From Lama guanicoe (lineage: Eukaryota): DNA of 64,000 bases. A program made the position numbers and the translations under genes. The DNA is taken from NCBI GenBank assembly GCA_013239625.1, contig MU053347.1:2734-66733 (forward strand), given 5' to 3'. Positions 677 through 64,000 of the stretch are shown piece after piece. The notes under the pieces are model-generated. The model worked only from the letters and a program-made list of their open reading frames with translations. It was not told the DNA's origin and ran no database searches. Position 1 is the first letter of the stretch. Each line of letters begins with the position of its first letter.

Positions 677-752
677 CCAGAAAAAGAGCACTTGCACAGA
701 GGGTTTTATGTATACGCTTTCACCAGGTGGTAAATGGAACACGCTCTTCTTC
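677..752 (-). pseudogene. ANO6: ANO6 exon 12 homologue (disabled)
   Basis: Intact AG acceptor (753-754). Reads EEERVPFTTW*KRIHKTLCASA vs ANO6 EEERIPFTAWGKCIRITLCASAVFFW. TGA at 720-722, 76 nt long (2-nt deletion), donor GT changed to AT (ATAAGA). Confidence 0.92.
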
Positions 753-2789
753 CTAATTAAAAAAACTAGTTTAGTCAAATAACGGATTACACCAATGAAA
801 TGATTTTCCTCCTAACTGGTCACTAAATCCTGAACATAATTTTAAAAAAATAATAATTTCCAGCCATAGCCTCCTTATTTGTAAATGCATGGGGTTTTTT
901 TCCTGTTTTTTTTTCTTTTCTTTTCTGTTAACGATGTCAAACACACAACAAAATATGTACAGTTTTCATTTTAATACTATTTTTTGAAAATGCACATGTG
1001 AACAGTAAACTGTTTCCCTGCCGTGGTCTGAGCACCTGGCGAGGCCAAGCTTTAAAGCTCTATTCCTTAGCTTGCCTTTGATTTCAGAAGTGATGGTAGT
1101 GACAGCCTAGAGTCTGTGCAGGACAGAAAGTATCACAGGGGTCTGCAGTTATCTGGTCTCCACTGTGTGTTTCTTCGTTGAGCTTTATGTGTTACTTAGC
1201 TGCAACTATGAAGTTTAAGTTTCCATTTTAGAATTTATATTTAGAATATTTTAAGAGATGAAATCAGTAAGACTCAATATTTACCTGGATTGTAAAACCA
1301 GATATAGTATAAAAATAGCTGTAACTAAGTACATGGCCCTTCCTATGTGCAAGGAAGTCTTCCAAGCAGATTCTGTACATTACTTCAACCCGTCCTTACC
1401 ACAGTCATGAAGAAGCAACTCTCTTATTCTTATTTTATAGGAAACTATGGCACAGAGAATTTAAGCTGTCCAAGATCACTCAGGAAGCAAGCTCCTGTGT
1501 TCAAATATGAATTTAGGCAACTTCATTCCCAAGCTCTCACTACCAAAACGCTTTAAACAATGGAGCATGCTTTTGCAAGTAAAGTAAAATGCTTAAATTA
1601 AAAAACTAAAAAAAAAAAATAAGGCAATTTTTTAAATAAGGAAGAATGATAAAGTTAAATGAGTCTTCATCTTCAATTTTTCAACAAGCATGTTCCAATG
1701 AAAATTTAAACTTATTAGCTGGCAATTTTAAATTTAAACTTGGCAGTTTAAATGACCAAAAAACTTTTCTTCAGTATTTTTTGTATGCTGCCAATATGAT
1801 AAGTTTTTGTTTTTCAGGACTCAAAAGCATTATGAACATCTAATTTTGTCTAAGTTTCAGCTTTCATCTCTGAATGTACAGTCTTTCACCAACATATGCT
1901 TTTACCCCCATCTTCAGTTTTAAACAATGGGAACTATTCATAATGGGGACTATTAGAAGCTTATTTCATTGTAAAAGACAAATGTCACTTTCTATTGGTA
2001 GCTGAACCTCATTTTTTTCCATTTATAAAAAGAGGAGTTTGACCTGCTCCCTCCCTACTTTTTCAGTGCCAACATTCTGTAGATCTGTGATTCAATTTAT
2101 TAAATCTATAATTGGAGACATTTTCAGATGCTCCTAATAAAAGCATTTTCTTTCTAAGAGTTATTCATGCTCACAACCTACTGTCCTGCTGCTGCTGACT
2201 ACAAGTACCATCAGCTCTAAATTATCTCAGCTGATGGAAAGAAGCAATATTACAGATGACTCAAAAATCATCTTTTCATAGCTCTGGAATGTTGATACAA
2301 AGATATACAGTTTTATTTTTTTAATTTTGCAGCAGGAGTGGCAGCAATAAATTTACATTTCCAATTATGTAAAATGCCTAGCACAAACACTGCTCAAACA
2401 CTGATGGCACCTCAACAAATGTTTCCCTGCTTCTTCTACCCTTTCTCTGACTTTAGGATTAGAGCCACGCTGCTCTGTGCAGATCCCAACCGGAAGGGGG
2501 AGCAGTGACCGGGACTTAGTTCAAGACAAAGGGGCACCTAGTCTACGATGAAAAGGAGGCCGCAATAATGAAGACACATGTGAAAAAATGGGAGTCAACT
2601 ATAAAAACCAATGTGTCTTTCCTTCTACATCCATGTCATAGCGGCTAATTTATATTTTGCATTTATTTTTGGTGTTATTAAAGGATAAAAATCAATGCCC
2701 CTTATACACTTATACCAGAATTCTTCTTTTCCCCCTTTTACTGATATTATGAAGGAAGGACCACACTTCTCTTCTGTGTCCACCATTCC

Positions 2790-2966
2790 AGGCAGTGCTC
2801 CTTCACCTTGGGTGCACATTAGAATAACCAGAGGAGCTTTATAAACTTCCCTATGCCAGAATGCACCCCAGGCCACTAAGTACCATCAGAGTTTCCAGTG
2901 ATGGAATCCAGGCACCAACATTTTTTAAGGTCCCCTGGTGATTCCAACATGCAGCCAAGGCTGACA
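2790..2966. mobile_element. MER5-type hAT DNA transposon (MITE)
   Basis: cagtgct..ccttgggtgcacattagaataacc..gagcttt...ggtgattccaacatgcagccaaggctga matches the MER5A consensus pattern. Confidence 0.75.
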
Positions 2967-3015
2967 AGTCCAGAAGTAAATAGACTAAAGTGCATCTAAA
3001 CAGCACCTGCTTTTC

Positions 3016-3152
3016 CTGGGTAATCTCATCTATCTCCACGTGGGGACACCGGGCCTCCTATTCTGGCCGGACTTGTCCTTCCTGCTCAACCGTGTCCCAT
3101 TTGTACTCAAGTTCTGCCTGGCGCCGCTTCCAGAACTCCAGAAGTAAGGTGA
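3016..3152 (-). pseudogene. ANO6: ANO6 exon 11 homologue (disabled)
   Basis: Intact AG acceptor (3153-3154). Reads (V)[44 protein letters not shown]. TAG at 3058-3060, 2-codon deletion relative to TVELQQEEQ, donor reads GAAAAG instead of GT. Confidence 0.95.
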
Positions 3153-3478
3153 CTAACAGAGAGAGAGAACAGCAGAATGTGCATCTTCAGTGATGACTGA
3201 TGCCTCAGAAAACTGTACTTAATATTTATTACACTTAACACTTTGGTAAATGGTTAATAAAATCACATTTTATTTATAGGCGATACTAAAGAGAAAAATG
3301 AGTTAATACTTTTTTTTTAAGAAAAAAGAAAATGTAGATAATTTATTGAACTTTTCAAAACAGACTAGCTCTCTAGCTCAGGGGAAAGTTATTTGCGTGA
3401 TGGTCAGAGGCAGGTGACTGTGTGTGATGCTGAAGTACCTGCTACCAGCACATTATGCCCATTAAAAACACAAATATC

Positions 3479-3578
3479 GGGGGGAAGGGTGGGTATAGCT
3501 CAGTGGTAGAGCACGTGCTAAGCATGTACAATGTCTTGGGTTCAAGCAACAGTACCTCCATTAAAAAAGAAAGTAAAA
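3479..3578 (+). mobile_element. tRNA-derived SINE (camelid type)
   Basis: GGGTATAGCTCAGTGGTAGAG A-box, GGTTCAA B-box, A tail; TSD AAAAACACAAATATC / AAAAACACAAGTAAC. Confidence 0.9.
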
Positions 3579-3989
3579 AAAAACACAAGTAACTGTCACA
3601 ATTTAAAAGCACTGCACGGTCCACCCTCCAACCCTTCTCCTCACATCTCTCTGTCTCTTCTGTCCGAAGGGCCTGAGGGTGGGGAAGGGGATGAGAATGC
3701 TTTAGTAGCCCCTGCATTTCTATTTTCAACCACCCCAGTCACACAAAATAAAAATAATATTCTTAAATATGGAAAACTGCCATTTTCCTCAATCTTCGGT
3801 AAAGTAATTCTTAGAAATCGTCATTCTGTTTTAAGACTCGTAACTTCAAATTGCAGACAAAAACAACATGACATGTTAATTGAAAATGTGACTTCAAGGT
3901 AAATCCACTAAGCCCTTCTTCCAGCCAGACTGTTACCCCTAGGCCCCAACTCTAGAGAAATTCCAGAATATCCACTGTTCGCTCCACCA

Positions 3990-4830
3990 TTATACCTGAG
4001 CCTCTACAATGCTCTGAGAACAAAGAGAAAAAAACACAGTCCCTGCTTCCGGGAGCTCCTAGGTGCACAGGAGTCATCGTGAAATGATGGCTGAGGAGGC
4101 ATGTTACGAGGGCTTGGATAACAGTCAGCAGAGGGTGCTCGGGACAGAGAGCTGGAACTGAAGCCAAGGCTCTCCCAGAGGAGGGAACCACTGTGCTGAG
4201 TTCTGAGATGCCCTAGAAGTGATCAGGTGAAGGTATAATGTTAAGGCCATTTCTCCCTGGGGAGCTGCACATGCAAAGGAGGGAGGCCAAAGAGAGCCAG
4301 GTCCCTTCCAGGAACTGCAAATAGTCTAGAAGTGAGCACAGGGTGTGGGAGGCAGGTGAGGCAACCAGGTGGAGAGATCACAGGTGCACATCACAAAGGA
4401 CTCTGTGTGCCTCCAAGGTAGATGAGACATGCAAACTGATCTAGAAAGAGACAAGATAGAGGCATGAAGACCTATTGGCAGGTTCATGTGAAGGCCTGCT
4501 GAGACCCCACCAGGTGGAGAGAGAAGAACACATTTCAGCAGGTGGACGGATTGGCCACAGGTGTGATGGAAGAGCAGGAAGAGATCAAAGATGCCAACCA
4601 GATTTCTGACTTTGGCAGTGTCCTAAATTATAGTGCCATTCCCTGAAATAAGAAGGGCAGGAAGAGGAGCAAGTCATGAGAGGAGACAACTGATTCAGTT
4701 CTGGCTGGGTGCCTGTGGGCTCCAGGAGAGGTGTCCAGGAGGCAAATAAAAGTCTAGAAATCGGGAGAAAGTTCTAGGCTGAGCCAAGTAGTTTTCCTGT
4801 TTCAAGAGGCTAATGGGTGTGAGTGGACAA
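3990..4830 (-). mobile_element. LINE-2 fragment
   Basis: Purine-rich diverged L2 body (gatcaaagatg..cagatttctgactttggca; ttcagttctgg). Confidence 0.55.
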
Positions 4831-4959
4831 GCTCACGAGAAGAGGTGTATAGGGGTATCTCTCACCCTTCTGCACATGGGAAGCATCTCGGAGCTTTTAA
4901 AACATAGTGCGTTCCAGCCTGGAGTGGGGCCTTTTTACTGTTTATTGTTTTTTAAATAC

Positions 4960-5078
4960 TTCTTTCCTTTTTGTGGGGGGTAGTTAGCTTTATTTATTTT
5001 AATGGAGGTACTGGGAATTGAACCCAGGACCTCTTGCATGCTAAGCATGTGCTCTAAAACTCAGCCGTACCCGCCCCA
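4960..5078 (-). mobile_element. tRNA-derived SINE (camelid type)
   Basis: Reverse complement of the same family (atggaggtactgggaattgaacccaggacctcttgcatgctaagcatg). Confidence 0.88.
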
Positions 5079-7008
5079 CCTTTTTTTGTTTTTAGACATT
5101 AGCTCTACTGAGCAGTCATGGTTGAGAATCAACCTGCAGAGAGCAGAGAGCCTTGGGGTCGAGACCAAGGAGAAGCTGCCCAGAGCCCTGCAGACCCCAC
5201 CGGGGGCAGCCGGAGACGCAGGGAGCTTCGGACGGGCTGTGAGGAACGTGAACTCAACACTCTTCAGTGACGAAGACAAAAAACATGTTTCAAGCTCCCA
5301 CTTCCCAGCAGGGTTTGTTCTGACTTTACCAGTTTTCCAGGAATACTGAGTGAGAATAGAAATTATCTGGACACAGGGATCATATTCAAATGGTGGTTCT
5401 GACCATTCTTAGCTGCGTGATTACTGATTAAGAGGTTACCCGTATGCCACGTGTAAAATGGGGGACTTAGCACCGTGCTCGTGGGCTGCTGTGAGAGTAA
5501 TGAAATGACATCTATAAAGGCCCTCCTGACTCTCAGACGTAATTGCTACTATTGTCCCCATTTGGGACACCAAGAAACAGAGGCACAGAAACCTTCAAAC
5601 ATTTGCCCAAGATGAGGGTTGGTGTCAGGAATCAAGCCAATGACTTCGTGGATCCAGAGCCCAGGATTTTCTTATGAACAACACGGCACTGCCCAGGCTG
5701 CCTGCTCCAAAGCCCGCCTCCTTTTGGCTCAGTTCCATGGCACCTGTGCTGCACAGATGCCCTCACTGCCTGCCTGCCTGCCTGCCCAATGTCTGCCTCC
5801 GGCACTCCTCCCTCCATCCCACATAGCGCTTCCGTGGGCACACCAACCCTCACGAGGCCATTGCTGTGGCTACTCAGATGTTTACACGGAAACGCAGGTG
5901 TCAGCCCCTTTTTGCTACAGGTGCTGCTGTCAGTGGAGGCAAAGTGTTCACAGTTGGTGGGGGAGGCCACATCTGGTCTCCTCCTTGGCTGGAGAGCTGG
6001 ATGGAATCCAGTTTCCCTCTGCAACTTAGACATCCAGCATGAGAGCTATGTAAGGCCATCTGGCCTCTCAACATAGAAATGATGCCCCTGCAGTTGTACT
6101 TAACATTGTAACCTCCTGGCTCCACCAGGGAGCAGAGGCCATGTCCTGTTGTCCACCAAGTTTTGTTTCCTTGCACGACAGCTACAATGGGTTAACACCA
6201 GACCAGAACATCTACAAAGCCCTCGTGTACTATATCCTGATACTTGTTGGTCACCCAAATATCTCAGATCCTCTAAGTAAACAACTAGTAAGAGGAACTG
6301 AGCTGACTCGTCTGTCAGTTCCCTGATGGCAGGACTGATTTGGCCTCTCCTGCTCTCGGGATGATCCGTTCTACTTCTGTGTGACCTTCCCTGAGTGAAA
6401 GAGACTGTTCTTTGTTTATGGGCTAGGGAGTATTTGTGGCTGTCTGACCAGAATCTTCAAAAGTAGAGCTCTTGGTGAGAATGGAAGCATGACACCCACG
6501 TCTCATGAGCTCAGCTACCCAACAGCCTCATTTAGCCAAGAATGTGGCCAACACCAGGGGCCCTCACTGTTGAGTGTTGGGTCTGGAGAGCAATGCCTCC
6601 ACCAGTGAGAAGCTGCCCCACCACTTGTGCCCTTGTCCCCATCGAGGGTGAGGTGACACATCCATGGGATGAAAGCCGTGAGGGCACTAAGTGACTGTGG
6701 ACCAAGCTGTGACTGCCCGGTCCTGTCCCCCATGTGACCCATGTTAGCCTCACATGCAGAAAATCCCTAAAGAGACCCCTGCTTGAGTGAATGGGTCACT
6801 TATAAGCCAACTGTCCTCGGGCTGCCTAAGAAGCAACACAGTGTACACAGTGAGCCACCAACTCACTGATGTCCCCAAGTCTCACAGCTCCCTAATGTGA
6901 CACCAGGGAATCCCAGCAAACAGAAGATCCTTACTTTATAATTGACTTGAGAATTCTACTGCCAACAATGCCTTCCACCTTTCACTTATGANNNNNNNNN
7001 NNNNNNNN

Positions 7009-7570
7009 AAAGAATGGCACAGCTATTAGCACCAAGACGATGGGAACGTCAACTCCCAGTAGATCTTGAGCTTCAATACACACTCTCCGAAATACAGCAG
7101 GATGCTAAATGGCACTCCCACAAGTGCCAGGACAGGTTCAAGGCTGACCATAAAAGGTCAAAGGGTGAGTGGTGGCCCAATTTCTGCGAATCCCATTACC
7201 TTCCCCAAAGCAGTTGGATTATTCCTCCCACTTATTAGCATATGAAGATACTGGGTACATAAAAACTAACAACCCCACACCTCGTGGCTGCTCTCTCTGC
7301 TGATGGAGACAGCCCACGCTATGTCTGCGGAGTGTGTATCTACTTGTACTTTAAACTGGAGCACCCAAACCCCACGCCTCATGGCCTTCTCTTGCCTTCT
7401 GAAACAGCCCACTCTGTCTGTGGAGTATATATCTCTCTGAAAAAATCTACATTTACTGAACTGTGGCTCACTTTTGAATTCGTTCCTGTGCAAACCAGGG
7501 ACCCACAACTCACGAGGTGCATCTCAGGGGCCCAAATAAGACCTGGGATACGGCCATCCTTTCCCCCACA
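7009..7570 (+). mobile_element. ERV solo LTR (ERV1-like); 5' end obscured by a small gap
   Basis: LTR-like architecture with an internal ~100-bp-period direct repeat (7274-7341 vs 7371-7436), ending in CA. Confidence 0.6.
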
Positions 7571-9871
7571 TTTTCCTATATCATACATTCCTTCCCGAAG
7601 GATCTCAACTTTTGCACTCCAAAGCAGACAGCACTCATGTGTCCTGACCTGGATCTGCTTCTGCGTTTATCATTTCTTATGTCCACTAGAACATCACATT
7701 CATGAGGACAGGGAATTGGTTCTGTTCACAAAGGAAGCACCAGCACATCACAGGTGCTGGAGAAGTATTAGCTGAATGAATGAGCTGTGGGAAGTCCTGG
7801 GAATTCCACCTGGAACTCCTAGCCACTTGGGACCCAGCTTACGCCAGGTGCTCCCTGCTACTCATGGCTGACCTCTTGCCACCACCCCCTGCTCTGCCAT
7901 CACCTGAGCCGGGATGAGCTGGGATGAGCACACAGCCCGGAGAGCATGGCGAATGGTTCATGTCATAGCAACACACTCGCCCTTTGACTGCCAGGGGTTA
8001 CTTAGGATGGACAAACTGAAAGCAGCACCATGTGCACCGCCCTACGCTACAACTCACTTGAAGCACCAGGACTGCACACAGGGGAAACGCTGGCCCTTTC
8101 CAACCTAAGGAGAGGGAATATGGATGAGAAGAGGGTCTCTGTCAACTAACAGTCTCTTTAAAACCCCAGTCTTAGAAAAGCTCTTTAAAGACACTTTTGG
8201 TATCTTCCTTGTGTTTCTGTAATCCCTCTAGATTTTGTCATTTTAATCTACGCATCAGAAATATAGATGCTCTTGAAATCTCTATTGATTTTCAATGAAG
8301 AAAATCCTCAATTTCCTTCTCTGCTAAGAAAATTACTGCACTTTATATAAAAAAAAGCAGCTTCCTTTCATGAGTTTCTATCTTCAAACACCTAATTTCA
8401 CAAGAATCAGTGAAGCAGGACATGAAAATCATGCTGTGCTTTATCACCTACAAGTGGGCAGGGATGAAATGAATGAGTACTGATCTCATGAGACGGGAAG
8501 GCTGGGGCTGCCTTATTCCTGCTACAGATGGAAGGGTCCAAATCTGTGAGGGTGAGGAAGGACCGAGAATGAGAAACCAACATTTTCTTACCCATTTCTC
8601 TTTTTTTGAGTCCGAGAAAAAACACTGTGATTTTATCAACAAAAACAAGAACATCTTCACCCTTCTAAAAGCACGCCACAACGTTACTACTACACACGAC
8701 ACTCTGTCACTGACCTAAAGGCTGATGACAGCCAAGAAATTTGCAGTGATCTTATTCTGTGCTCATCCCTTTTTGTCTTTGGAACCTCAGGAAGTTTGCC
8801 GCCTCTCCCTGAGTGTCATTTTCCTCATCCTTCAAATGGGAGTGTAACAGTCATTCATTTGCTCAGTGTCTATTCGACAACAGGAGACGGCTTATGAAAA
8901 CAAAAACAACAAAATACAGAACAGCAATTCTGATCTGTGCTGTCTTCCTCCTCCTCCCTGAACATGAACTTACCGGGCAAAATGGCATCTTTCACTAAAT
9001 CCCAAACTTAAGGAGCAGTTCTGATAAGGACGTCATCGGACTGCCGTGTAACCGAGAAATGACTTGGTGAAAAAGAATGAGTTGCCAGCAAATCCTCAAA
9101 ACCAGTTAGGGAAGAAACCCTGGGAGCTACAAGCATGGGTGGGAGTTCCTTAGTTCCCCATTTCACAAAGCCGAGAACTTTGCAGGGTCCATGAAAGACA
9201 CAGATAGCCCAGTACAACCACACCATGTTTTGGAGTACACCGAGGCCACATCGCTGCTGACCTGTATTCTTTGTGTCCTAGAGCAAGAGCCCTGGGCGGG
9301 GGTGACTGTGTTTGCGGCCGGACAAGAACTTCCTGTTCTGTCTCTTTTGCTCTCTCAATTCCTGCAATAAAACAACTGGCAGGACTCTGGTGGGGAGCAA
9401 TGCACCCACATTCTCTGGCAAACCACACACTAGGCAGCGCTAGCTGATCTGAGAGAGGACTCTTCAATGAACATATATACACCAAAGTCATGCAGAAGGC
9501 TGCCTGTGACCTTGGGAATCCAAACCAGCTTGTCCTGTTAATCAGGATATTAGACATCTAAAGAAACTGTGCACCAGATGAAGATGATGCCTTAGACAGC
9601 GTTGGTGGTTATGTCCAGCAGTGTCTAAGGACAAGTCATGCTCTGGTAGATGGGAGCATTTTGGTTGCTTTCAGAGTTTGCTACTGAAGGGCTGGGACAT
9701 TTCATTGGGCCTTGAAACTCCAGAACTCTTTACTCACAAAGGCAGACAGTTAGGTGAGCCAGCTCAGCCTTCATTCCAACTTCCTAACCAAAAGGCTGTG
9801 AGGTTGAAAATATATTTCTCAGACTCTTCTGCAACAAGGGTTCCAGAAGTGGCTTTAAAAATGCCCATCAG

Positions 9872-10111
9872 AGATTGAGATTTGCAAATATTAACTACTA
9901 TATATAAAAATAGCTTAAAAAACTAAATTTCTTCTGTATAGCACAGGGAAATATATTTAATATCTTGTAATAACCTTTAATGAAAAAGAATATGAAAAGG
10001 AATACATACATATATATGTGTATATGAATGACTGGAACATTGTGCTGTGCATCAGAAATTGACACATTTTAACTGACTATACTTCAATTAAAAAAATATA
10101 CATTTAAATAT
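9872..10111 (+). mobile_element. Very short L1 3' tail insertion with a 12-bp TSD
   Basis: L1 3'UTR motifs (ctgtatagcacaggg...aactgactatacttcaattaaaaaaa), flanked by AATGCCCATCAG at 9860-9871 and 10112-10123. Confidence 0.85.
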
Positions 10112-51120: not shown

Positions 51121-51317
51121 AAATGCAGCCCGTTTTGTGAAAGCAGAGCCATGGTCAGAAAGTAACGGGTATTTCTAGGGGCCAGACATGAAGCACAGTG
51201 AGTGTGGCCTGTTCAAGAATCAGAGGGCAGTCTGCCAGGGCTGGGGGAGAGTGACAAGGGAAGTGTGGTACAGGTAGGATTCAGACCTGACAGGCTAGGA
51301 TAAGGAGCCTGGACTTC

Positions 51318-52746: not shown

Positions 52747-52785
<39 letters not shown>

Positions 52786-52797
52786 CACACACACACA
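52747..52797. repeat. (CA)n microsatellite
   Basis: Directly visible dinucleotide run. Confidence 0.95.
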
Positions 52798-53799: not shown

Positions 53800-54061
53800 A
53801 TGCATGCACGTACACACAAACACACGTGCAAACACACTGACTCTGCTCCACATACTTCCCTACACACACATGTACATGGACTCATGTACCACACACACAC
53901 ATACCATACACACAACCACACACGTCCTCAGGCGCACACACAAACATACTCACAACCACATACATCCCCAGGTGCACGCGTGCACAGCCACACACACACT
54001 CACAGTCATGTACCACACAATTCCCCAGGTACGTATGTGCGCACACACACGTCATACACAC
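53800..54061. repeat. Degenerate CA-rich simple repeat
   Basis: About 260 nt of imperfect (CA)n/CACG. Confidence 0.85.
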
Positions 54062-56504: not shown

Positions 56505-56725
56505 ATGTCATATAACAGGATATAGTATGTTATTATTTATTAAATAACACATAATAGAAGATATACTAGCATTTTATGTTTATTTATTAGCAGATTATAT
56601 ATAATACATATGTAGGTGTTTATATACATAATATATAATTCATCCATCTATATAATATATAACCTATAACAATTAATGTAAGATTATGATTAATATATAA
56701 TATAACAAGATTACATAACAATAAT
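56505..56725. repeat. AT-rich low-complexity tract
   Basis: Degenerate (TA)n/TAA sequence. Confidence 0.8.
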
Positions 56726-57139
56726 GAAGTAGTTTTACCCATTGTATGTCTTGGTTCATGACAAATTCTCATCTTAGGTGCCTGTCAGAGGTATTTACAT
56801 ATTAAAATTAATATTATAAGACACAGTTATGAACATATCACCCAGCATCATAACAGGAATATTGACAGTGACATACTGTGTCCTCTTTCCCTATCCTGTC
56901 CTTGGCCTCTTCTCACAGGAAGTAACCAGCATCCTGAATCCTGGCTTACCTTTCTCTTGTGTTATTTTCACACACACAATATTTAAGATCAGTTAAAACT
57001 AATGAACTGCAGGTACATGCAACTAAATGGATGAATCACACACTCAATGTTAAATTGAAAAAGTAAGCCCTAGAAGGTAGCCTATAGTGTGCTATGCTTT
57101 TAACTGTGTATATATATGTCAACTAAACTCACTAAATTA

Positions 57140-58200
57140 AGAACAACTACAGCTAGAGTCCAGGTGGGAGAGAGACAGATAAAAGGTGAGGTGAGCAGAT
57201 TTGCTGCAGGTGAGAGAGATTCTTTCCAGTAACATGTCAGTCTCTCTGAAGTAGGAGGTAAGACCATCTGCTGGGAGTCGGGGAAGAGACAGAGGGAAGC
57301 TTAGAGGTGTGCAGAGAGCAGAGAATGTTGACACCACTGAGTGATAAGTGGGGAAATGTGCTCACTAGAGAAATCCTGGAGGATTGCTAGGCAGTGGCAA
57401 CATGGTGGGCATTGATTTGTAGTCTTAGAAATCTGTGCTGGGAGAGCCTGCTGCCTGCAGGCTCAGAACAAATAGAGCTGGGTGAACCGAGATGGAAGTC
57501 GTCCTGGTGAGGAACTGGAAAGATCAAGGGTCAAGGGGGTTTTGTTTGTCATAAAGAGAGTGCTGATTGTGGATGCAGAGCTGGAAGGTGGGGAAGTGGA
57601 AGTAAGAGGAACGTGGACTGGCAGAAAAGCAGAGGAGTCAGTGCTTGATGCCCAAGTGAGGGTGAAGGAGGGCCAGGGAGGCTGGTGGAGAAGCAGCTGG
57701 ACGGCTAGAGGTGGTCACTTAAAGGAGAGAGGCTGGAACCGGGGTGGAGACACGCCCGGGTATGAGCCCGGGGCTAGGGTGAATGGGCGGTTGCTGGCTC
57801 AGGCTGACGGAGAAGAAGACTGGGTGGTGGAGGGAGAATGAACTTTGAAGTCTTGCTGGTAGTAGGTGAGGCAATACAGAGCTGGTGGTCCAGGTGCTCC
57901 TGACTGAGGCAGAGGAGCAGGGAGGCCAGGGTGGCCAGCACTGCTAGGAAAGGATCTGGGTTTTCCAGGTGCTCCCAAGAGAGGAGGAGCAATGATCTGA
58001 AGGTGGAAAGTGAGCACAAGGAGGTCAATCCAGGCACCTGATCAAACAGGGGGCTGTGAGGGGGCAAAGCGTCAACTCCAGAGATGGTTACCCAGGAAGC
58101 AGGGACCATGGGTGAAGTGAGGGGACACTCAGAGAAGAGAGGGAGAAAAGTCTTCTGGATGTAGGGGGAAGAGAGGCCCCAGGACAAAGGAATACAGAGG
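57140..58200 (-). mobile_element. LINE-2 fragment
   Basis: Purine-rich diverged L2 ORF2 body (ttctctgaagtaggagg; ggatgtaggggga). Confidence 0.5.
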
Positions 58201-60029
58201 CACAGTGATGAGGATGGACTGGCTCTATGGTGACACTGCAGGGGTGGCTGGATCTTTGTTCTGAGGGCTTAGGTTGGGGGGACTACTGGCCTCATCAGGA
58301 CCCCCCTCTCAACAGCCTGGACAGAGGCTCTCGCTCCTGAGAGCTGTGTGGCCACCATCATTCCCGGAGGGGCTCTGCTTTCATCTTCTCTTATCAGACT
58401 TTCCTGCCCAGTCCCCGATCACCAGTGAGGGATCCTGGGCCTCGCAGCTGCTTCCCGTGGAGGGACACAGGCTCCTCAGAGAAGCAGGCTGATCTTACTT
58501 TTCTCCGTAACCCAAGGCCTAGCAAAGCGCCAGCCCATGTGTGGGCCTTGTGGGATCTCGAATACTTAGCAAACTAACTCAAAGCAGTAGAATAGCAGAG
58601 CTGGAGGAAGTGACCACTGAGCTCACAGAGTTCACTGCCCACACCCCTATTCTACAGATGAGGAATCAGAAACCAAGCGGTGAAGCAGCCTTGGCCAAGG
58701 TCACGCTGCTCTTAAATGCTGGCCTGTGTCAGGCATGCCAAGTGATGAGCTGCAGTGAAGGGGCTGAGAGGGGGCTCTGGGGCCAGACAGCTTGGGTTCA
58801 AGTCCCGGCTCTGCCATTTATTAGCCGTGTGATTAATGAATGTCCTTACCTTTAAAGTGGAATTCATAGTGGTGCCAACTCATTGAATTTTCATGAACAC
58901 AGCATTCCTGCAGTAGCAGGACAGAGTTCTGTAAGGGTTTGCTGTTGCTTTGTTTACAATTATTATCACCAAGTGAACCCTGAAATGAAGAACAAAGGCA
59001 GTAAGATTTTTTATTTTAAAGGATTTTAAAATCCTCTGATGAATGTTTCATTTCATTTATTCAAGTTTGCATTTGACCCTTATTAACAACTACACAATGG
59101 ATGACTTTTGAGGCAATCTTGCTTCATGTCTTTAATTATCACTAATGACACAGGCTATTTAACAGGCAGCAGTTTCTTTTCCAGGAAGAGGGACAAAAAG
59201 TTGAAAATGACTCAGTGCCTCTCGGTCCCCAGTGAGTTGGTTCTGACCTGTCAACCCAGCTGTGGGGAAGTGCCCGCTCCCCCTGGGCTCGCTGAGCTGC
59301 CCTGCAGCCACCAAGGGGCACTGTACCCCCACACAAATCCAGTCTCTTGGTTCCTATCTTTGCTTCAGATCCCTCAAGGACTGCCCATGACCTAGGGCCC
59401 CATCTGCCCCACAAACCTTGGCTGCTGGACTCCAGGACACTATCCTGGGTCTCAACCAACCTCTGTTCCTATGACCGCCCCACTACTCTACATTTTGTCC
59501 TTCAAGTGTGGGCTCCTGTGGCTCGCCACACAGCAGGGGTCTCCCCGTCATCTACCTTGGGTAACTGCATTGTCCTGCAAGGTGCCTAGCGAACCCGTGT
59601 GGAGGCAGGAAGAATACAGAACAACAAGTGCTCAGAGGGGCTGCATTTCCCACTGCAGGGGCCCTAGAGAGCTTTCTCCCAGCTGGTTATTCACAGGCGC
59701 TGAAGCTGTGGAATCTCGATCTCACCAATTTAAAGGAATCACTAATTAGCAATCACTTCTTCAGAAGCAAAAGGAGAAAAGACTTGTGTTCCCCACCTCC
59801 AACTTTTTTCCTCCACCTTCAGATGTTTCTCATCTCTGGGCAAAGGTAGAAAGCAACTCACAAAATATTTTTCAATGTTTTTTCCCACTCTGAAGATTGC
59901 TTTCCCAGAACCGATGAAGGCTACAATGGTTTAGCTTTCCTAGACTAAGTATTCAGAGGCCTGGGGGGGAGCGGGGAGGGGAGAGGTGAGATAACTCAGC
60001 AATTTTGAAACTAACAGAGACATTAAAGG

Positions 60030-61617
60030 TTCTATTCTAAACAGAAAGGAAGCAGGACACTATAGAAACAGGAAAACCATAGTTGGAAATGCAATAACGA
60101 GTTACAAGAGAATAAACATAAAGATGTAAAAATGAAAAAGGACATCAAAATAAAGGTGGGAATGGGAGAGGGGAGCAAGAAAATATAAATTTTTTTCTTT
60201 CTTTTTTTTCTTCATTATTCTTAGGATGTGTTGGAGCCTATGTGATTATCAGTCTAAAGGAAATAGATATAGTAATGGGTTGATATATTTGAAGAATAAG
60301 GTAACCACAAATCAAAAGCATACAATAGAGTCACAAAAAAACCAAAAAGAAACAAACTCAAAATGGCTTAAAGACTTAACTATTAGACAAGACACTATAA
60401 ACTTCTAACAAGAAAACATAGGCAAAACATTATTTGACAGACATCTCAGCAATGTTTTCCTAGGGCAATCTAAGCAACCCAAGCAACAGAAATAAAAGCC
60501 AAAATAAATAAATGAGACCTAATTAAACTTATAAACTTTCGCACAGCAATAGAAACCATAAGTAAAACAAAAAGACAACCTATGGAATGGGAGAAAATAT
60601 TTGCAAAAGATGAGACTGACCATGGCTTAATTTCTAGACTATATAAATAGTTCATACAACTTAATAAGAAAAAAATAAACAACCAAATCCAAAAATGGGC
60701 AGAACAACTAAACAAGCAATTCTCCAATGAAGACACACAAATGGCCAATAGGCATATAAAAAAATGCTCAATATCGCTCAATTATCAGAGAAATGCAGCT
60801 CAAAACTACAATGTTATCATCTCACACCAGTCAGAATGGCCGTCATTCAAAAGTCCACAAACCATAAATGCCGGAGAGGCTGTGGAGAAAAGGAAATCCT
60901 CCTACATTGTTGTTGGGAATATAGTTTGGTGCAGCCACTGTGGAAAAGAGTATGGAGATTCCTCAAAAGACAAAAAAAAAAAAAATCAACTTATCACCTA
61001 ATCCAGCAATCCCACTCCTAGGCATATACCCAGAGGGAACCTTAATTCCAAAAGATACCTGCACCCCAATGTTCACAGGAGCACTGTTTACAATGGCCAA
61101 GACATAGAAGCAACCTAAATGTCCACTGACAGATGACTGGATAAAGATGTGGTATTTAGATAAAACAGAATATTACTCAGTCATAACAAAGAAGGAAATG
61201 AGGCCATTTACAGCAACTTGGATGGAACTGGAGATTATCTCACAAAGTGAAATAAGTCAGACAAAGACAAGTATCATATGATATCATTCATATGTGGAAT
61301 ATTAAAAAAATGGTACAAATGAACTTATTTATGAAACAAAAACAGACTTACAGACTTATAAACCAAACTTAGGAGTTTGGGATCAACAGATACAAATTAG
61401 TATATGTAAAACAGACAAATGACAAGGATTCACTGTAGAAAACAGGGAACAATATTCAGTATCTTGCAACCCTTAATGGAAAAGAACCTGAAAAAGAATA
61501 GGCTATGTATATATACAACTGTATCACTATGTTGTATACCTGAAACTAATAAAACAGCTGTATATCTGAAACTAACAAAACATTGTAAATCAACCACATT
61601 TCAATTTAAAAAAAAAT
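60030..61617 (+). mobile_element. LINE-1 fragment, with the inter-ORF region joined directly to the ORF2 3' part and 3'UTR
   Basis: 60030-60350 resembles 19185-19510; from about 60350 it jumps to ORF2 C-terminal sequence (NSKWLKDLTIRQDTI) and continues to polyA near 61610. Confidence 0.88.
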
Positions 61618-62084
61618 TGATAAGCTCTAAATACCTTTATTCAAAGAAAATCTTGAACTCTTCCTTCTTACAAAACTTAAAATTGGTAGCTTGAGCAGGA
61701 CCAAATTATACTGGATGTGCAGTTATATATCTTCTCCAGCACGTGGCCCATGCTACACACATATCGTGTTTTCCTACAGGTAAGAACAGCCCTGAGTGCA
61801 CAGGGAGCGAGTCCTTCTGGGACAAGGTCTCTGTGGCAGTGGCCTCCTTGTCACTGCTCCATCTCACCAGGAGGCCAGTGTTTTCAGAAGTGAGGGGACA
61901 TAGAGCTCATTCACTTCAAATTGATTTCCAGAAAATACTATGAAAAAACCAAATTCAACTGCAGTGTGGGAAACATGAGCAGGGCCCCTAAGCAGAATGA
62001 CAAGCCCAAAGTAAGATGGCCCAATGTTCAGATCAGAACCAGAACAACGACCACCTGGCCCCAGTTAAATGACCACCACCTCAC

Positions 62085-62330
62085 CTGCAATAAACTGCTC
62101 GTACTCAATGTCAGGGATGTTTCTGTTGAGGTTTGAGAGGTCAAAGGAGTCGGACCAGGGAATCCAGACCTGGTTGATGTCAGGGCTCTGCCAGTGGTAG
62201 AGGTGGCCCCAAGGGGATAGCACCAGTACCGGCTCCTCCATCTTCAGCAGGGTCTTCAGGAGGAAGGCAATGTCAGACGTTCCTACGGAGGCTGATGCCC
62301 TCTGGAGGGTTCAAGTCACACAGAAGGTAC
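62085..62330 (-). pseudogene. POFUT2: POFUT2 exon 2 homologue (frameshifted)
   Basis: ccctgtcag acceptor and GTGAGG donor intact, 246 nt. [18 protein letters not shown] then a ~5-nt deletion, then [62 protein letters not shown], vs POFUT2 [66 protein letters not shown]. Confidence 0.96.
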
Positions 62331-62597
62331 CTGACAGGGAGCAAAGGAGAGCAGGTCTTCAGGGCCAGGCCTCTGCACAGGAATCCTGGCTTAGATAGAA
62401 CAGATACAACGGGAACCCCTGCACAGCCAATGGCCTAGACTCCAGACACATTCAGCAGCTTCTGGATTGTAAAGTGGAGGCACTGCCCACCCATCTCCAT
62501 GTGGCCAATTACTTCAAGTCCGGGAACAGTTGCGGAAGACATCTTGACGTATGTCTAACACCACTAAGCACCTGACTAGCACCTGAGCACCCTTTCT

Positions 62598-63070
62598 CCA
62601 GGGGCTCTCAAACTTCTTGTTCTACAGAACCCTATACACTCTTAACAATTACTGAGAACTCCAAAAGGCTGTTATTTATGTGAGTTAAATCTATCAATAT
62701 TTCCTGTGTTAGAAGTTGAATAAGAAGTTAGAAAAAGTGTATGAATTCACTTAAAAATATTAACAATCTACTGTATGTTACCATTAATACTCTTAAACAA
62801 AATATAATTCTATTTTTCAAAACAAAAATCATTAGTGAGAAGAATAGCAGTGATTTTAATTTCTGCAAATCTCTTTTGGACTGGTGAGAGCTGAATTCTC
62901 CTATGTGCCTCTGCATTCCCTGTATTGTGATATCACAGGCCAGGGTTTCCCTGGAAAACTCCACAGGAACTAGGGAGAGCAAGAGTGTGCAAAAGGCAGG
63001 TGACATCCCGACGTTTCTATGAAAATGGTCTTGCACCTCAGGGGCCTTGGATACACTTTGTTAACTGCTG
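62598..63070. mobile_element. hAT-Charlie-type DNA transposon remnant inside the POFUT2-like intron 1
   Basis: Termini caggggctctcaaactt ... cactttgttaactgctg; AT-rich interior typical of MER/Charlie elements. Confidence 0.6.
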
Positions 63071-63727
63071 CCCTATCCTAGGCGGGACTCTTCTACACAA
63101 GAGCCAGGCAAGGGTCCTGGATTCTGTAATGAGTTACCGCCGCCACCGCACCCCTCCCTTCTCTGTGTGTTTCTCACAACCTCCATTACTGCAGATGAGG
63201 ATGTAATCCTCAGCCAGGGCCTCTAATCCCAGAAGACTGCTAACTTCAAGAGAGAGGGTCCCATCTACCATCCCTACACCCCGCATAGTTTATTTTGAGT
63301 CAAGCCCTAGATAACTCCTTATCGGCACTGACCCTTGTCTTATTCCTGAGGTTGACTGAAGGAACCAACTTCTGGATGAGGATGGAACTTTCCCTGCAGA
63401 TAAACAAGGCTGATAAACCACCCCATTCCAACATCTGATTCTGGGGCTCTTCAAAACCCGGGTAAGGCCCCGCTTCATCTAAGAGGGGTCCTCCGCCTGC
63501 CCTTCCCGGGGGGTTCTGGGAGGCCGCGGCCACCAAGGTAGACCCAGAATCGTGGCCCCAGCCCCAGGGCCTGAGGGGGAGGAAAGCTTGGGGCTGTGCC
63601 CAAGCCCTGCCCCGCCCCGCCCCAACACGCTCACCGGCACCACAGCCCTCCCCAGCCACAACCCAAACCGCGATCCCACCCCGGTTCATGTCCACCGGCC
63701 CCGCCGACGGCGCGGACGTACGTTTAC

Positions 63728-63840
63728 CATCTGTGGGACTCCGCCCCAGACAGGATGTCAGCCGCCGACAGACCAGGCGAGAACTAGTCGCCCGGCCAAG
63801 CAAGCCGCCATCCCCAGCAGCAAGCACCGCATTGTCCCTG
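63728..63840 (-). pseudogene. POFUT2: POFUT2 exon 1 homologue (signal-peptide region decayed)
   Basis: [20 protein letters not shown] matches POFUT2 [21 protein letters not shown]. TAG at 63784-63786; the LLLG signal-peptide remnant is in a different frame; donor GTAAAC at 63727. Confidence 0.88.
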
Positions 63841-63911
63841 GCAGCTACACACTTCCGGAGCCCGCTCCCCGCCCCAGAAGCGCACCCAGGCCCGCGCGGC
63901 ACGCGGCGCCT

Positions 63912-63925
63912 GTAACCATGGCAAC
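63912..63925. promoter_or_regulatory. RFX X-box motif
   Basis: GTAACCATGGCAAC is a near-palindromic match to the RFX consensus GTNRCC-AT-RGYAAC, inside a CpG island. Confidence 0.7.
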
Positions 63926-64000
63926 GCCGCGGGGCCCTCCCCTAGCGCTTGCGTTGTTCGTCCTCCTGAGTCTAGATGTGCGAGGGCAGAACATGCAGAG

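What the first reader, a model, noticed from the sequence alone, without database searches (positions are those of the whole stretch)
677..63990. Mosaic duplicon: dead ANO6 and dead POFUT2 copies, normally unlinked, arranged head-to-tail on one strand behind apparently intact promoters
Seen: intron-containing ANO6 exons 4-8, 11 and 12 and POFUT2 exons 1-2 are all on the minus strand, about 30 kb apart. Each is truncated (ANO6 lacks its 5' exons, POFUT2 lacks its 3' exons). Known: in human, ANO6 is on 12q12 and POFUT2 on 21q22.3. Inference: this is a lineage-specific segmental-duplication hub in which a promoter plus 5' exons from one gene were placed upstream of promoterless exons from another. 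That is the architecture of chimeric gene birth, seen here in a decayed or non-coding state.
Basis: partly seen in the sequence, partly recalled or inferred. Interest (0 to 1): 0.72.

Follow-up and report, generated by a model that had tools for sequence, protein, structure and literature searches.

The report
Amplified mosaic ANO6–POFUT2 pseudogene duplicon
This stretch is one decayed copy of a patchwork roughly 90 kb long, made from pieces of two unrelated genes and copied more than fifty times in a camelid-type genome, so it shows how mammalian genomes build and spread mosaic duplications and is not a working new gene.

Summary
On the minus strand, window 1-33740 is an intron-containing copy of ANO6 (exons 4-8, 11 and 12; about 83% identical to the true ANO6 locus). 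Window about 60332-64000 is the POFUT2 promoter island with exons 1-2. All the exons are broken.

- This is not a single hub. It is one member of a family of at least 55 POFUT2 pieces, 40 ANO6 exon-8 pieces and 68 copies of a CpG-island motif, 86-96% identical to the window, mostly on small contigs.
- The POFUT2 → CpG island → ANO6 order, strand and spacing recur in 22-26 contigs. Both flanks of the 497-N gap lie about 568 bp apart in 32 of 34 other contigs. The arrangement is therefore not a mis-join.
- A 26.6-kb middle block of unknown origin, with its own CpG island, separates the two gene pieces.
- The decay began at the root of the family. An in-frame TAG and two deletions in POFUT2 exon 1 are shared wherever exon 1 was read. 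The loss of ANO6 exons 9-10 is shared by every copy scored. A POFUT2 exon 2 → ANO6 exon 4/5 splice would be out of frame.

POFUT2 exon 2 diverges among copies at the intron rate. NCBI 'POFUT2-like' models place the family in Camelus and Vicugna. RNA evidence could not be obtained.

The parts
1..33740 (-). ANO6-derived block. It holds introns and pseudo-exons 4-8, 11 and 12 and is collinear with the true ANO6 locus C8676:7130002-7165208. It runs off the window start.
   Evidence: blocks at 80-85% identity; homology ends at 33740 = parent 7165208, in intron 3; the parent is ANO6.
32343..32408 (-). ANO6 pseudo-exon 4. It has a 1-bp deletion, an in-frame stop and an altered donor. The acceptor AG is kept. 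The low coordinate is approximate.
31155..31444 (-). ANO6 pseudo-exon 5, with a TAA stop and a 1-bp deletion. Both splice sites are kept.
30820..30933 (-). ANO6 pseudo-exon 6, with a 3-bp insertion. The frame is open.
28596..28718 (-). ANO6 pseudo-exon 7, with a 1-bp deletion and a TAG stop.
23492..23638 (-). ANO6 pseudo-exon 8. The frame is open, but the acceptor CAG is changed to CGG.
   Evidence: A 32-nt motif from it occurs in 40 copies plus the parent.
11161..11178 (.). Junction of a 6.1-kb deletion relative to the parent (C8676:7141055-7147133) that removed ANO6 exons 9 and 10. It is shared by the family.
   Evidence: All 39 of 39 non-self places scored align straight across it.
3007..3138 (-). 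ANO6 pseudo-exon 11, with a 6-bp deletion, a TAG stop and a destroyed donor GT.
678..752 (-). ANO6 pseudo-exon 12, with a TGA stop, a 2-bp deletion and a destroyed donor.
14047..14897 (+). Interspersed-repeat insertion absent at this spot in the parent. I call it L1-like from recall. It is 97% identical to another copy at C8676:7203035-7203880.
17645..23459 (.). 5.8-kb stretch that replaces 1.7 kb of parent intron 8. It is repeat-rich and holds two assembly gaps and a 156-bp tandem duplication.
33741..60331 (.). Middle block of unidentified origin. It has no match to the ANO6 parent or to the POFUT2 parent pieces that I held, and it is multi-copy together with both flanks.
   Evidence: boundaries; the 60.33-kb one is provisional; copies; no Pfam domain in the ORFs of 62 aa or more scanned in this block.
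43401..44000 (.). CpG-island remnant inside the middle block (GC 0.67-0.69, CpG o/e 0.65-1.02). The ATG at 43862-43860(-) reads ACG in most of the other copies.
   Evidence: Motif count is 68.
45623..45778 (-). Sequence matching a 3' exon of an NCBI Vicugna pacos POFUT2-like model (P0146 aa 115-166, 77%).
56018..59006 (-). Zone holding matches to 3' exons of NCBI camelid POFUT2-like models: 59006-58836, 57947-57837, 57343-57158 and 56245-56018.
   Evidence: P0135, P0192, P0193, P0137, P0140, P0132.
60332..64000 (-). POFUT2-derived block: promoter island, exon 1, intron 1, exon 2 and about 1.7 kb of intron 2. The duplicon continues at least 500 bp beyond the window end.
   Evidence: L009 = C1971 aligns to 60533-63880; K2P 0.22 to the parent.
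62085..62330 (-). POFUT2 pseudo-exon 2. It is 246 nt against 251 nt in the parent and in 12 of the 13 other copies, because a 5-bp deletion shifts the frame. The acceptor and the donor at 62085 are intact.
63730..63919 (-). POFUT2 exon 1 remnant. It carries the family-wide 14-bp and 11-bp deletions and an in-frame TAG, plus a private 1-bp deletion after the ATG.
63550..64000 (.). POFUT2 promoter CpG island, retained (o/e 0.80 here, 0.94 in the parent).
34129..34625 (.). 497-N assembly gap. In other copies the flanks are about 568 bp apart, so the join is real.
42621..42698 (.). 78-N assembly gap. It is bridged indirectly by the conserved CpG-island-to-ANO6-exon-8 spacing in other contigs.

Best explanation
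The window is one decaying member of a camelid-restricted family of large mosaic segmental duplications. Each unit is at least about 89 kb.

How it most likely arose:
- Three pieces came to lie together in one acceptor site, all in one orientation. The first is the POFUT2 promoter with exons 1-2 (at least 3.7 kb). The second is a 26.6-kb block of unknown origin with its own CpG island. The third is at least 54 kb of ANO6 (exons 4-17).
- The two junctions that I could map lie in or beside interspersed-repeat fragments.
- The composite then lost ANO6 exons 9-10 and the POFUT2 reading frame.
- Only afterwards was it copied en bloc, in several waves, to at least 55 places. Many of these sit at scaffold ends or on small unplaced contigs. 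This two-step history (mosaic first, amplification second) is inferred from the shared junctions and shared lesions.

What it does now:
- It encodes neither enzyme and cannot encode a POFUT2-ANO6 fusion protein.
- The copies drift at the neutral rate.
- Both CpG islands have kept much of their CpG content. I infer that they stayed unmethylated in the germline and still drive non-coding or nonsense transcripts. Those transcripts would splice from the POFUT2 exon 2 donor into novel downstream exons, as the NCBI 'POFUT2-like' gene models of camels and alpaca suggest. This step is inferred and was not shown here.
For: Origin:
- The ANO6 block is collinear with C8676 at 80-85% identity, introns included. 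C8676 is ANO6.
- The POFUT2 block aligns to C1971, with intron p-distance 0.16-0.18 and K2P 0.20-0.23. That is about the same divergence as the ANO6 block shows from its parent.

Amplification (reversed-pattern controls gave 0 hits in all three pattern searches):
- Window 62000-63000 has 39 other places at 86-96% identity; 40 of 263 candidates were scored.
- A POFUT2 exon 2 motif with up to 3 mismatches has 56 hits: 55 copies plus the parent.
- An ANO6 exon 8 motif has 41 hits: 40 copies plus the parent.
- A CpG-island motif has 68 hits.

The mosaic was made once:
- POFUT2 → ANO6 exon 8 lies on the same strand at 38.7-58.6 kb for 22 of 55 POFUT2 hits.
- POFUT2 → CpG island lies at 18.3-31.1 kb for 24 of 55.
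- CpG island → ANO6 lies at 18.5-27.5 kb for 26 of 68 (all).
- The ANO6/middle-block junction with both gap flanks is present in 34 other contigs, and in 32 of the 34 the flanks are 557-572 bp apart.
- The deletion junction for exons 9-10 is spanned by 39 of 39 non-self places.
- The 11 non-parent copies with exon 1 sequence in the alignment all share two deletions and a TAG relative to the parent.

Unit size:
- In C2810, the POFUT2 motif at 236,577 and the anoctamin Pfam positions 334-368 at 148,691 are 87.9 kb apart.

Neutral decay:
- Exon 2 pairwise divergence among the 14 copies is 0.088, against 0.086-0.110 in the flanking intron.
- Changes by codon position are 33:23:37.
- 4 of 14 copies have a broken exon 2.

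Promoters:
- CpG o/e of the POFUT2 island is 0.48-0.90 in copies (parent 0.94), against 0.15-0.32 in intron 1.
- 51% of parental CpGs are retained in the island, against 26-30% outside it.

Taxon:
- 19 proteins carry the family signature, and all are named Camelus ferus, C. dromedarius, C. bactrianus or Vicugna pacos.
- The dromedary models lie on at least 8 large scaffolds.
Against: - No RNA was examined.
- Pooled pN/pS among copies is 0.49, and 10 of 14 copies keep exon 2 open. This leaves room for weak or past constraint on some members.
- The origin of the 26.6-kb middle block is unknown. The only lead is a 139-bp match at 80% to C2563:11.986 Mb.
- The POFUT2 block's lower boundary rests on only 1.5 kb of parent sequence. 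It could move if the parent gained an insertion there.
- Only 22-26 copies could be shown linked. The remaining motif hits sit on short contigs, at contig ends or in rearranged units. There are two POFUT2/ANO6 pairs within 80 kb on opposite strands, on C837 and C4123.
- Chromosomal position and sex linkage were not tested.
- Copy numbers come from one short-contig assembly, which may collapse or split copies.
Confidence: 0.85

Rival explanations
1. The family is a young protein-coding gene family. Short secreted or ER-resident 'POFUT2-like' proteins of about 120-235 aa would be expressed from the retained promoter, and selection would have driven the amplification. The window would just be a dead member.
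For: - NCBI annotates many POFUT2-like models with several isoforms in four camelid species.
- Exon 2 is open in 10 of 14 copies.
- Pooled pN/pS is 0.49.
- The promoter CpG island is retained.
Against: - Exon 2 diverges as fast as its introns (0.088 against 0.086-0.110), with almost even changes over codon positions.
- All copies with exon 1 read share an in-frame TAG and 25 bp of deletions in the parental frame. The models therefore have to use other frames and differing N-termini and C-termini.
- Only positions 1-80 of the 326-position O-FucT domain are present, so the fragment cannot be a transferase.
Confidence: 0.08
2. The ANO6-POFUT2 adjacency is an assembly artefact: a mis-join of two repeat-rich contigs across the N gaps.
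For: Five N gaps lie in the window, two of them between the gene pieces. The contig belongs to a fragmented assembly of 55,231 contigs.
Against: - The same order, strand and spacing recur in 22-26 other contigs that differ from the window by 4-14%.
- The flanks of the 497-N gap lie 557-572 bp apart in 32 of 34 other contigs.
Confidence: 0.02
3. The family is a sex-chromosome (Y or X) ampliconic array of the kind that carries testis-expressed transposed genes. Its spread would reflect sex-linked amplification or meiotic drive.
For: - Copy number is high, there are inverted partial copies (C837, C729, C4123), and most copies sit on small unplaced contigs.
- RNA runs that hold some words of the stretch are labelled 'reproductive system'.
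Against: - NCBI models of one 90% cluster lie on at least 8 dromedary scaffolds of 3.9 to 164 Mb.
- In this genome, copies sit on four multi-megabase scaffolds as well as on small contigs: C6476 (43.4 Mb), C2129 (7.9 Mb), C5183 (3.8 Mb) and C12520 (20.5 Mb, anoctamin fragments only).
- The alpaca Y paper has no occurrence of ANO6 or POFUT and reports no transposed sequences (passages only).
Confidence: 0.05
4. The driver is the middle CpG-island block. It would be a camelid 'core duplicon' with its own transcript, and the POFUT2 and ANO6 pieces would be passengers picked up at one stage of its spread.
For: - The CpG-island motif has more hits (68) than POFUT2 (55) or ANO6 exon 8 (40).
- 32 of the 64 contigs that hold it have no POFUT2 or ANO6 hit. 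Among them is a distinct sequence subtype on contigs of 40-370 kb or more.
- The island keeps CpG o/e up to 1.0.
Against: - The three motifs have different sensitivities, so the counts are not strictly comparable.
- Many of the 32 contigs are very short, so missing flanks may reflect contig ends.
- No transcript or ORF of the block is known.
Confidence: 0.2

Closest known systems
Primate mosaic (pericentromeric or subtelomeric) segmental duplications and core duplicons. This is recalled from Bailey & Eichler 2006, which I saw only as an entry in the reference list of PMC13751797. The two-step model and core duplicons are also from recall.
   Same: - Intron-containing fragments of unlinked genes are juxtaposed into a composite.
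- The composite is then copied en bloc to many sites.
- Copies lie near scaffold ends.
- Junctions lie at interspersed repeats.
- Promoters are retained and could give fusion transcripts.
   Different: - The lineage (camelids) and the source genes (ANO6, POFUT2) differ.
- The copies are older: 4-16% apart, and about 20% from the parents.
- No sign of positive selection or of a coding fusion was found.
- Chromosomal position was not determined.
'Pseudogene-rich repetitive blocks' of alpaca chromosomes 11, 17 and 36 (PMC13751797; passages of the abstract, results section 14 and the discussion were read)
   Same: The animal family is the same, and so is the pattern: fragmented, multi-copy, gene-derived sequences in repeat-rich domains, interpreted there as segmental duplication followed by degeneration.
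   Different: - The genes reported there are NEK10, ATF5, FMN2, uS3m, ACTB and ABHD17A. The words anoctamin and fucosyltransferase occur 0 times and POFUT2 0 times.
- Those blocks are reported as absent or reduced in camels.
- This family has named members in both Camelus and Vicugna.
NCBI RefSeq gene models 'GDP-fucose protein O-fucosyltransferase 2-like' of Camelus and Vicugna
   Same: They are the annotated members of this family. They are up to 95% identical to the window's exon 2 translation and share the diagnostic substitutions (YLLCD, VCIHIAF, KMEE). Their 3' exons map into the window's middle block.
   Different: The window's own copy is frameshifted and has no such model. The models are database predictions. 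I found no paper that describes them as an amplified mosaic linked to ANO6.
CHRFAM7A-type partial-duplication fusion genes (recalled)
   Same: The 5' exons and promoter of one gene lie upstream of promoterless internal exons of another, through segmental duplication.
   Different: Here the phases do not match (phase 1 into phase 0), both parts carry stops, 26.6 kb of foreign sequence lies between them, and no fusion transcript has been shown.
Y-linked ampliconic families of transposed autosomal genes (recalled). The alpaca Y paper PMC7830431 was read as passages.
   Same: An autosome-derived fragment was amplified to dozens of copies, some of them inverted.
   Different: No evidence of sex linkage was found. 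The alpaca Y paper reports no transposed sequences and does not mention these genes.

Membership tests
Segmental duplication (operational definition recalled: at least 1 kb, at least 90% identity, not a transposon) | At least 1 kb at 90% identity or more to another place in the same genome | tested here: met
   - 3.0-3.5 kb at 92.6-94.3% to 7 other contigs.
- 4 kb at 92-94% to 4 contigs.
- 1.4 kb at 90-93% to more than 25 contigs.
Segmental duplication (operational definition recalled: at least 1 kb, at least 90% identity, not a transposon) | Made of ordinary genomic sequence (genes with their introns), not a mobile element | tested here: met
   The window is collinear with ANO6 introns and exons over 35 kb and with the POFUT2 promoter, intron 1 and exon 2. 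No Pfam mobile-element domain was found in 150 ORFs of 33.7-63.5 kb.
Mosaic duplicon amplified en bloc | Segments from two or more unlinked source loci are joined | tested here: met
   The parents are on C8676 (45.3 Mb) and C1971 (3.78 Mb). A third block has no match to either.
Mosaic duplicon amplified en bloc | The same junctions and internal lesions are present in the copies | tested here: met
   - The ANO6/middle-block junction is in 34 other contigs.
- The exon 9-10 deletion junction is in 39 of 39 places.
- The exon 1 deletions and TAG are in all 11 copies read there.
- Spacing is conserved in 22-26 contigs.
Processed (retro)pseudogene | Introns absent, cDNA-like structure | tested here: not met
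   The introns of both genes are retained and align to the parents.
Chimeric (fusion) protein-coding gene | An open reading frame continues across exons of both source genes | tested here: not met
   - POFUT2 exon 2 ends with one overhanging base.
- ANO6 exons 4 and 5 begin on a codon boundary.
- Read in the shifted frame, the parental exon 4 reaches TGA at its 7th codon.
- The window has stops or frameshifts in 5 of its 7 ANO6 exons and in POFUT2 exon 2.
Chimeric (fusion) protein-coding gene | A transcript joins exons of both source genes | not testable with these tools
None of the 22 POFUT2 and POFUT2-like proteins compared matches any ANO6 pseudo-exon of the window at E 0.001 or better.
GT68 protein O-fucosyltransferase (POFUT2) | Complete O-FucT domain (Pfam PF10250, 326 positions) | tested here: not met
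   Only positions 29-78 match in the window, at 31.0 bits against a cut-off of 31.5. Copies match positions 1-80 only. Exons 3-9 are absent.
Anoctamin / TMEM16 scramblase | Complete anoctamin membrane domain with an open frame | tested here: not met
   The window holds aa 96-333 and 395-462 of 911, with stops. Exons 9-10 are deleted family-wide.
Core duplicon (recalled concept) | The element occurs in most duplication blocks, including blocks that lack the flanking duplicons | tested here: inconclusive
   The CpG-island motif has 68 hits. 32 of its 64 contigs have no POFUT2 or ANO6 hit, but many of them are short and none could be read.
Sex-chromosome ampliconic family | Copies confined to the Y or the X | not tested
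   Only indirect evidence is available: NCBI dromedary models lie on at least 8 scaffolds. No male/female depth comparison or mapping was possible here.

The most novel reading that the evidence does not exclude
The 26.6-kb middle block, with its still CpG-rich island, is a camelid 'core duplicon'. On this reading it is a germline-active promoter element that has spread on its own, and in one lineage of its spread it picked up the POFUT2 5' end and most of ANO6. It now drives a family of more than 50 lineage-specific transcripts, some of which may be regulatory or weakly coding. That would make it the camelid counterpart of the primate core-duplicon gene families.
Probability: 0.15. Interest if true: 0.65.

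Novelty: new member of a known kind. Interest (0 to 1): 0.4.

Why it matters
Mosaic segmental duplications that carry promoters next to foreign exons are the raw material for lineage-specific genes. They are also hot spots of rearrangement and mis-assembly. They have been studied in depth mainly in primates (my recollection).

This is a well-defined non-primate case. The unit is about 90 kb and has clear parents, clear junctions and a datable history. It has at least 55 members, which amounts to a few megabases of a 2-Gb genome (my estimate). By database names it is shared by Old World and New World camelids. My four literature searches found no description of it.

It also matters in practice. 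The copies are annotated as 'POFUT2-like' genes and could mislead gene-family, GWAS and copy-number analyses in camelids. One dromedary GWAS lists POFUT2 as a candidate gene (PMC10357240, passages read). I could not tell whether that annotation refers to a family member.

As a new gene, it is most likely a dead end.

Tried and rejected
I replaced it with ORF lists.
- The Pfam O-FucT hits on C55221 first looked like the POFUT2 parent. Their DNA does not match the window at all, so they belong to another O-FucT gene. The parent is C1971.
- RNA evidence: one search listed six RNA runs holding 0.10-0.16 of the sampled words. These small shares are not evidence of expression or tissue.
- Ka/Ks: parent versus copy gives 0.18-0.33, and pooled pN/pS among copies is 0.49. 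I rejected this as evidence of constraint. The parent branch is under selection, the parental synonymous sites are CpG-rich, and exon 2 diverges at the intron rate.
- ANO6 exon 9 motif: only the parent matched. This is uninformative, because about 6 differences are expected in 36 nt at parent-copy divergence. The deletion was shown by the junction search instead.
- Source of the middle block: DNA searches score only the 40 best candidates, and all of those are copies. The motif search gave one hit on a 25.3-Mb scaffold (C2563:11,986,197). Only 200 bases could be fetched, and 139 of them align at 80%. This remains a lead only.
- TRAPPC9 lead from the GWAS paper: PF08626 has a single hit in this genome under a stricter first look. 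There is no sign that it belongs to the duplicon.
- Window 60.4-64 kb against 33.7-60.4 kb: the only similarity is between interspersed-repeat fragments. The second CpG island is therefore not a second POFUT2 promoter.
- Rfam found only two tRNA-like hits, which are probably SINEs. The tandem repeat search found nothing relevant.
- Earlier findings of this scan returned nothing.
- Alpaca Y paper: no mention of these genes.

Full report
**Where the window lies.** The window is G000:C682:2734-66733, on a contig of 296,970 bp, in a 2.05-Gb assembly of 55,231 contigs. It holds five N gaps: 6992-7008, 21155-21198, 23168-23452, 34129-34625 and 42621-42698.

**The ANO6 part.**
- I fetched 200 kb around the best anoctamin locus of the genome and compared it with the window. 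Window 100-33720 is collinear with C8676:7130002-7165186 in blocks of 80.6-84.9% identity, introns included.
- A more sensitive alignment puts the end of homology at window 33740 = C8676:7165208. That is in the intron upstream of exon 4, inside an interspersed-repeat fragment that the parent also carries.
- C8676 is ANO6. One of its exons matches PDB Anoctamin-6 chains at E 3e-39, against 2e-22 for Anoctamin-1.
- Base-level alignment to the parent shows these lesions:
  - exon 4: a 1-bp deletion and a stop
  - exon 5: a TAA stop and a 1-bp deletion
  - exon 6: a 3-bp insertion
  - exon 7: a 1-bp deletion and a TAG
  - exon 8: acceptor CAG changed to CGG
  - exon 11: a 6-bp deletion, a TAG and a lost donor
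  - exon 12: a TGA, a 2-bp deletion and a lost donor
- Exons 9 and 10 are missing because 6.1 kb of the parent (7141055-7147133) is absent between window 11161 and 11178.
- Two repeat-rich insertions relative to the parent lie at 14047-14897 and 17645-23459.

**The POFUT2 part.**
- Window 62068-62310(-) matches human POFUT2 (4ap5_A residues 45-106, E 1.3e-26) and Pfam O-FucT positions 29-78.
- The true parent is C1971, around 2,707,802-2,708,098. Its 3.3-kb locus L009 aligns to window 60533-63880. The O-FucT hits on C55221 do not match the window's DNA and belong to another gene.
- Exon 2 is 62330-62085. Its acceptor and its donor are intact, but a 5-bp deletion shifts the frame. The exon 1 remnant is about 63919-63730.
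- No remnant of exons 3-9 exists, even at E 20.
- A further 1.5 kb of the parent's intron 2 matches the window only at 60332-60531. I therefore place the lower end of the POFUT2 block at about 60.33 kb. This is provisional, because no more parent sequence could be fetched.

**The middle block.**
- Window 33741-60331 (26.6 kb) matches neither parent.
- Of 150 ORFs of 62 aa or more between 33.7 and 63.5 kb, only the POFUT2 exon has a Pfam hit.
- The block carries a CpG-island remnant at 43401-44000 (GC 0.67-0.69, o/e 0.65-1.02).
- It is not a second POFUT2 promoter. The only similarity between 60.4-64 kb and the middle block is between repeat fragments.

**It is a family, not a single locus.**
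- Window 62000-63000 has 39 other places in the genome at 86-96% identity; 40 of 263 candidates were scored.
- Window 42700-46700 aligns over 1.5 kb or more at 87-94% to 34 other contigs.
- Window 10500-11900 matches 39 other places at 88-93%.
- Motif searches allowing 3 mismatches, each with 0 hits for the reversed control, give:
  - 56 places for POFUT2 exon 2: 55 copies plus the parent
  - 41 places for ANO6 exon 8: 40 copies plus the parent
  - 68 places for the CpG island
- Most copies are on contigs of a few kb to 0.6 Mb.
- Four copies lie in the last 442 kb of the 43,364,887-bp scaffold C6476. Others lie 150-250 kb from the ends of C2129 and C5183.

**The mosaic came first and the amplification second.**
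- From the motif coordinates, an ANO6 exon 8 hit lies downstream on the same strand of 22 of the 55 POFUT2 hits, at 38.7-58.6 kb. Eleven of the 22 distances are between 44.07 and 44.91 kb; the window's is 38.7 kb.
- The CpG-island motif lies 18.3-31.1 kb downstream of 24 of the 55 POFUT2 hits.
- ANO6 exon 8 lies 18.5-27.5 kb downstream of 26 of the 68 CpG motifs.
- The unlinked hits are mostly on short contigs or at contig ends. Two POFUT2/ANO6 pairs within 80 kb are on opposite strands (C837, C4123), which points to inverted partial units.
- Both flanks of the 497-N gap, which include the ANO6/middle-block junction at 33740, occur on the same strand in 34 other contigs. In 32 of the 34 they are 557-572 bp apart, with a median of 568.
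- The junction of the exon 9-10 deletion is crossed by all 39 non-self places scored.
- The 11 non-parent copies with exon 1 sequence in the alignment all share a 14-bp and an 11-bp deletion and a GAG→TAG change in the parental frame.
- These shared junctions and lesions show a single origin.
- In other contigs the ANO6 part runs on to Pfam anoctamin positions 334-412, which correspond to aa 672-740, exon 17 by my count. In C2810 the POFUT2 motif and that exon are 87.9 kb apart, and in C837 87.2 kb. The unit is therefore at least about 89 kb. In C682 the missing distal part falls beyond the contig start.
- Copies stay homologous for at least 500 bp upstream of the window's end.

**Age (partly inference).**
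- Over 2 kb of the POFUT2 block, K2P is 0.20-0.23 between parent and copies and 0.042-0.160 (median 0.122) among the 14 copies. It is 0.054-0.067 within the window's subfamily.
- The ANO6 block is about equally far from its parent, at about 17%. This fits both pieces having been duplicated at about the same time.
- With a recalled mammalian neutral rate of about 2.2e-9 per site per year, the seeding would be some tens of millions of years old and the window's subfamily roughly 12-15 million years old. These figures are rough.
- In the protein search, 19 of 73 hits carry the family's diagnostic substitutions. All 19 are named Camelus ferus, C. dromedarius, C. bactrianus or Vicugna pacos. The 54 others carry the parental motif or a variant of it.
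- One 90% cluster mixes Camelus and Vicugna members. The dromedary models lie on at least 8 scaffolds of 3.9-164 Mb. The family therefore predates the split of camels and South American camelids and is dispersed over several chromosomes.

**Is anything still functional?**
- Exon 2 is open in 10 of 14 copies, and pooled pN/pS among copies is 0.49.
- However, its pairwise divergence (0.088) equals that of the neighbouring intron (0.086-0.110). Minimum changes by codon position are 33:23:37. The parental reading frame was already closed at the family root. I read this as neutral decay.
- A POFUT2-ANO6 fusion protein was never possible by direct splicing. Exon 2 ends with one overhanging base. ANO6 exons 4 and 5 start on codon boundaries. 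In the shifted frame, the parental exon 4 reaches TGA at the seventh codon.
- The promoter islands, by contrast, have kept their CpGs. The POFUT2 island has o/e 0.48-0.90 in copies (parent 0.94), against 0.15-0.32 in intron 1. 51% of parental CpGs are retained inside the island, against 26-30% outside.
- I infer long-term germline hypomethylation, and so probably continued promoter activity.
- NCBI POFUT2-like models from other camelid assemblies continue from exon 2 into sequences that map in the window at 59006-58836, 57947-57837, 57343-57158, 56245-56018 and 45778-45623. None of the 22 proteins compared matches an ANO6 pseudo-exon.
- I could not test transcription.

**Comparison with what is known.**
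- The structure works like the mosaic segmental duplications described in primates (recalled). It also resembles the 'pseudogene-rich repetitive blocks' just reported for alpaca chromosomes 11, 17 and 36 (PMC13751797, passages read). That paper names other genes, does not mention POFUT2, anoctamin or fucosyltransferase, and describes blocks that are absent from camels.
- The alpaca Y paper (PMC7830431, passages) mentions neither gene.
- Four full-text searches found no description of an amplified ANO6-POFUT2 unit. Supplementary files were not opened.
- I file the window as a new member of a known kind.

**Open points.** Still unresolved are the source of the middle block, the exact upstream and downstream ends of the unit, its chromosomal location, true copy number, expression, and whether the CpG-island block spreads independently (the core-duplicon reading).

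Noticed in passing
window 43401-44000; G000 contigs C4142, C6178, C243, C3491, C8194 and others: The CpG-island motif occurs 68 times, more often than the POFUT2 (55) or ANO6 (40) motifs. 32 of the 64 contigs holding it have no POFUT2 or ANO6 motif hit. A distinct sequence subtype sits on contigs without those pieces. The block may have its own amplification history.
   Followed up: partly
G000:C2563:11986146-11986283 (L061), against window 43789-43925: A mid-scaffold place on a 25.3-Mb scaffold matches the island core at only 80% over 139 bp. It may be the single-copy ancestor of the middle block. Only 200 bases could be fetched.
   Followed up: partly
window about 45290-45500, and other copies: Most copies carry about 5.5 kb more sequence than the window's subfamily (C8397, C5985, C7593, C4868, C7163) at window about 45500. 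An inverted copy of the preceding 210 bp lies about 300 bp beyond the breakpoint. This is an indel bounded by an inverted repeat, and it splits the family into two structural types.
   Followed up: partly
window 43100-43525: This is an imperfect palindrome inside the GC-rich zone next to the island. The window and its copies match themselves in reverse complement at 66-76% (query 400-825 against the opposite strand).
   Followed up: no
window 14047-14897, against C8676:7203035-7203880: An 850-bp interspersed-repeat fragment in the ANO6-derived block is 97% identical to a copy in a distant intron of the true ANO6 gene. It is far younger than the duplicon (83%), so it was inserted after the duplication by a recently active element. 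Related older fragments lie at 22564-23167, 33169-33851, 41507-42529, 50644-51119 and 60382-61371.
   Followed up: partly
L014 (G000:C7312:16952-20200), against window 60098-61245: One copy lacks the repeat fragment of about 1.15 kb that sits at the POFUT2/middle-block boundary. It joins window-equivalent 60098 directly to 61245.
   Followed up: no
window 5003-5074(-) and 23753-23824(-): Two Rfam tRNA hits (39.5 and 33.1 bits) lie in ANO6-derived introns. They are most likely tRNA-derived SINE heads and not tRNA genes. One also matches SINE-like stretches in other loci.
   Followed up: no
window 20405-20720: A 156-bp unit is duplicated in tandem (2.0 copies, 94% matches) inside the repeat-rich insertion.
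   Followed up: no
G000:C6476:42922848-43358454: Four POFUT2-type copies (three on the minus strand, one on the plus strand) cluster in the last 442 kb of a 43.36-Mb scaffold. The last copy is 6.5 kb from the scaffold end.
   Followed up: partly
G000:C764:126320-136736: Anoctamin Pfam hits here sit in very long open frames (460-872 aa), unlike the exon-sized frames of the other anoctamin loci. This is possibly an intron-poor paralogue or a processed copy.
   Followed up: no
window 63303-63941(-): A 213-aa stop-free frame runs from POFUT2 exon 1 into intron 1. Part of it (63689-63381) is 91% identical to the N-terminus of an NCBI dromedary 'uncharacterized protein' model (P0151). That model therefore appears to translate GC-rich intron sequence.
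   Followed up: no
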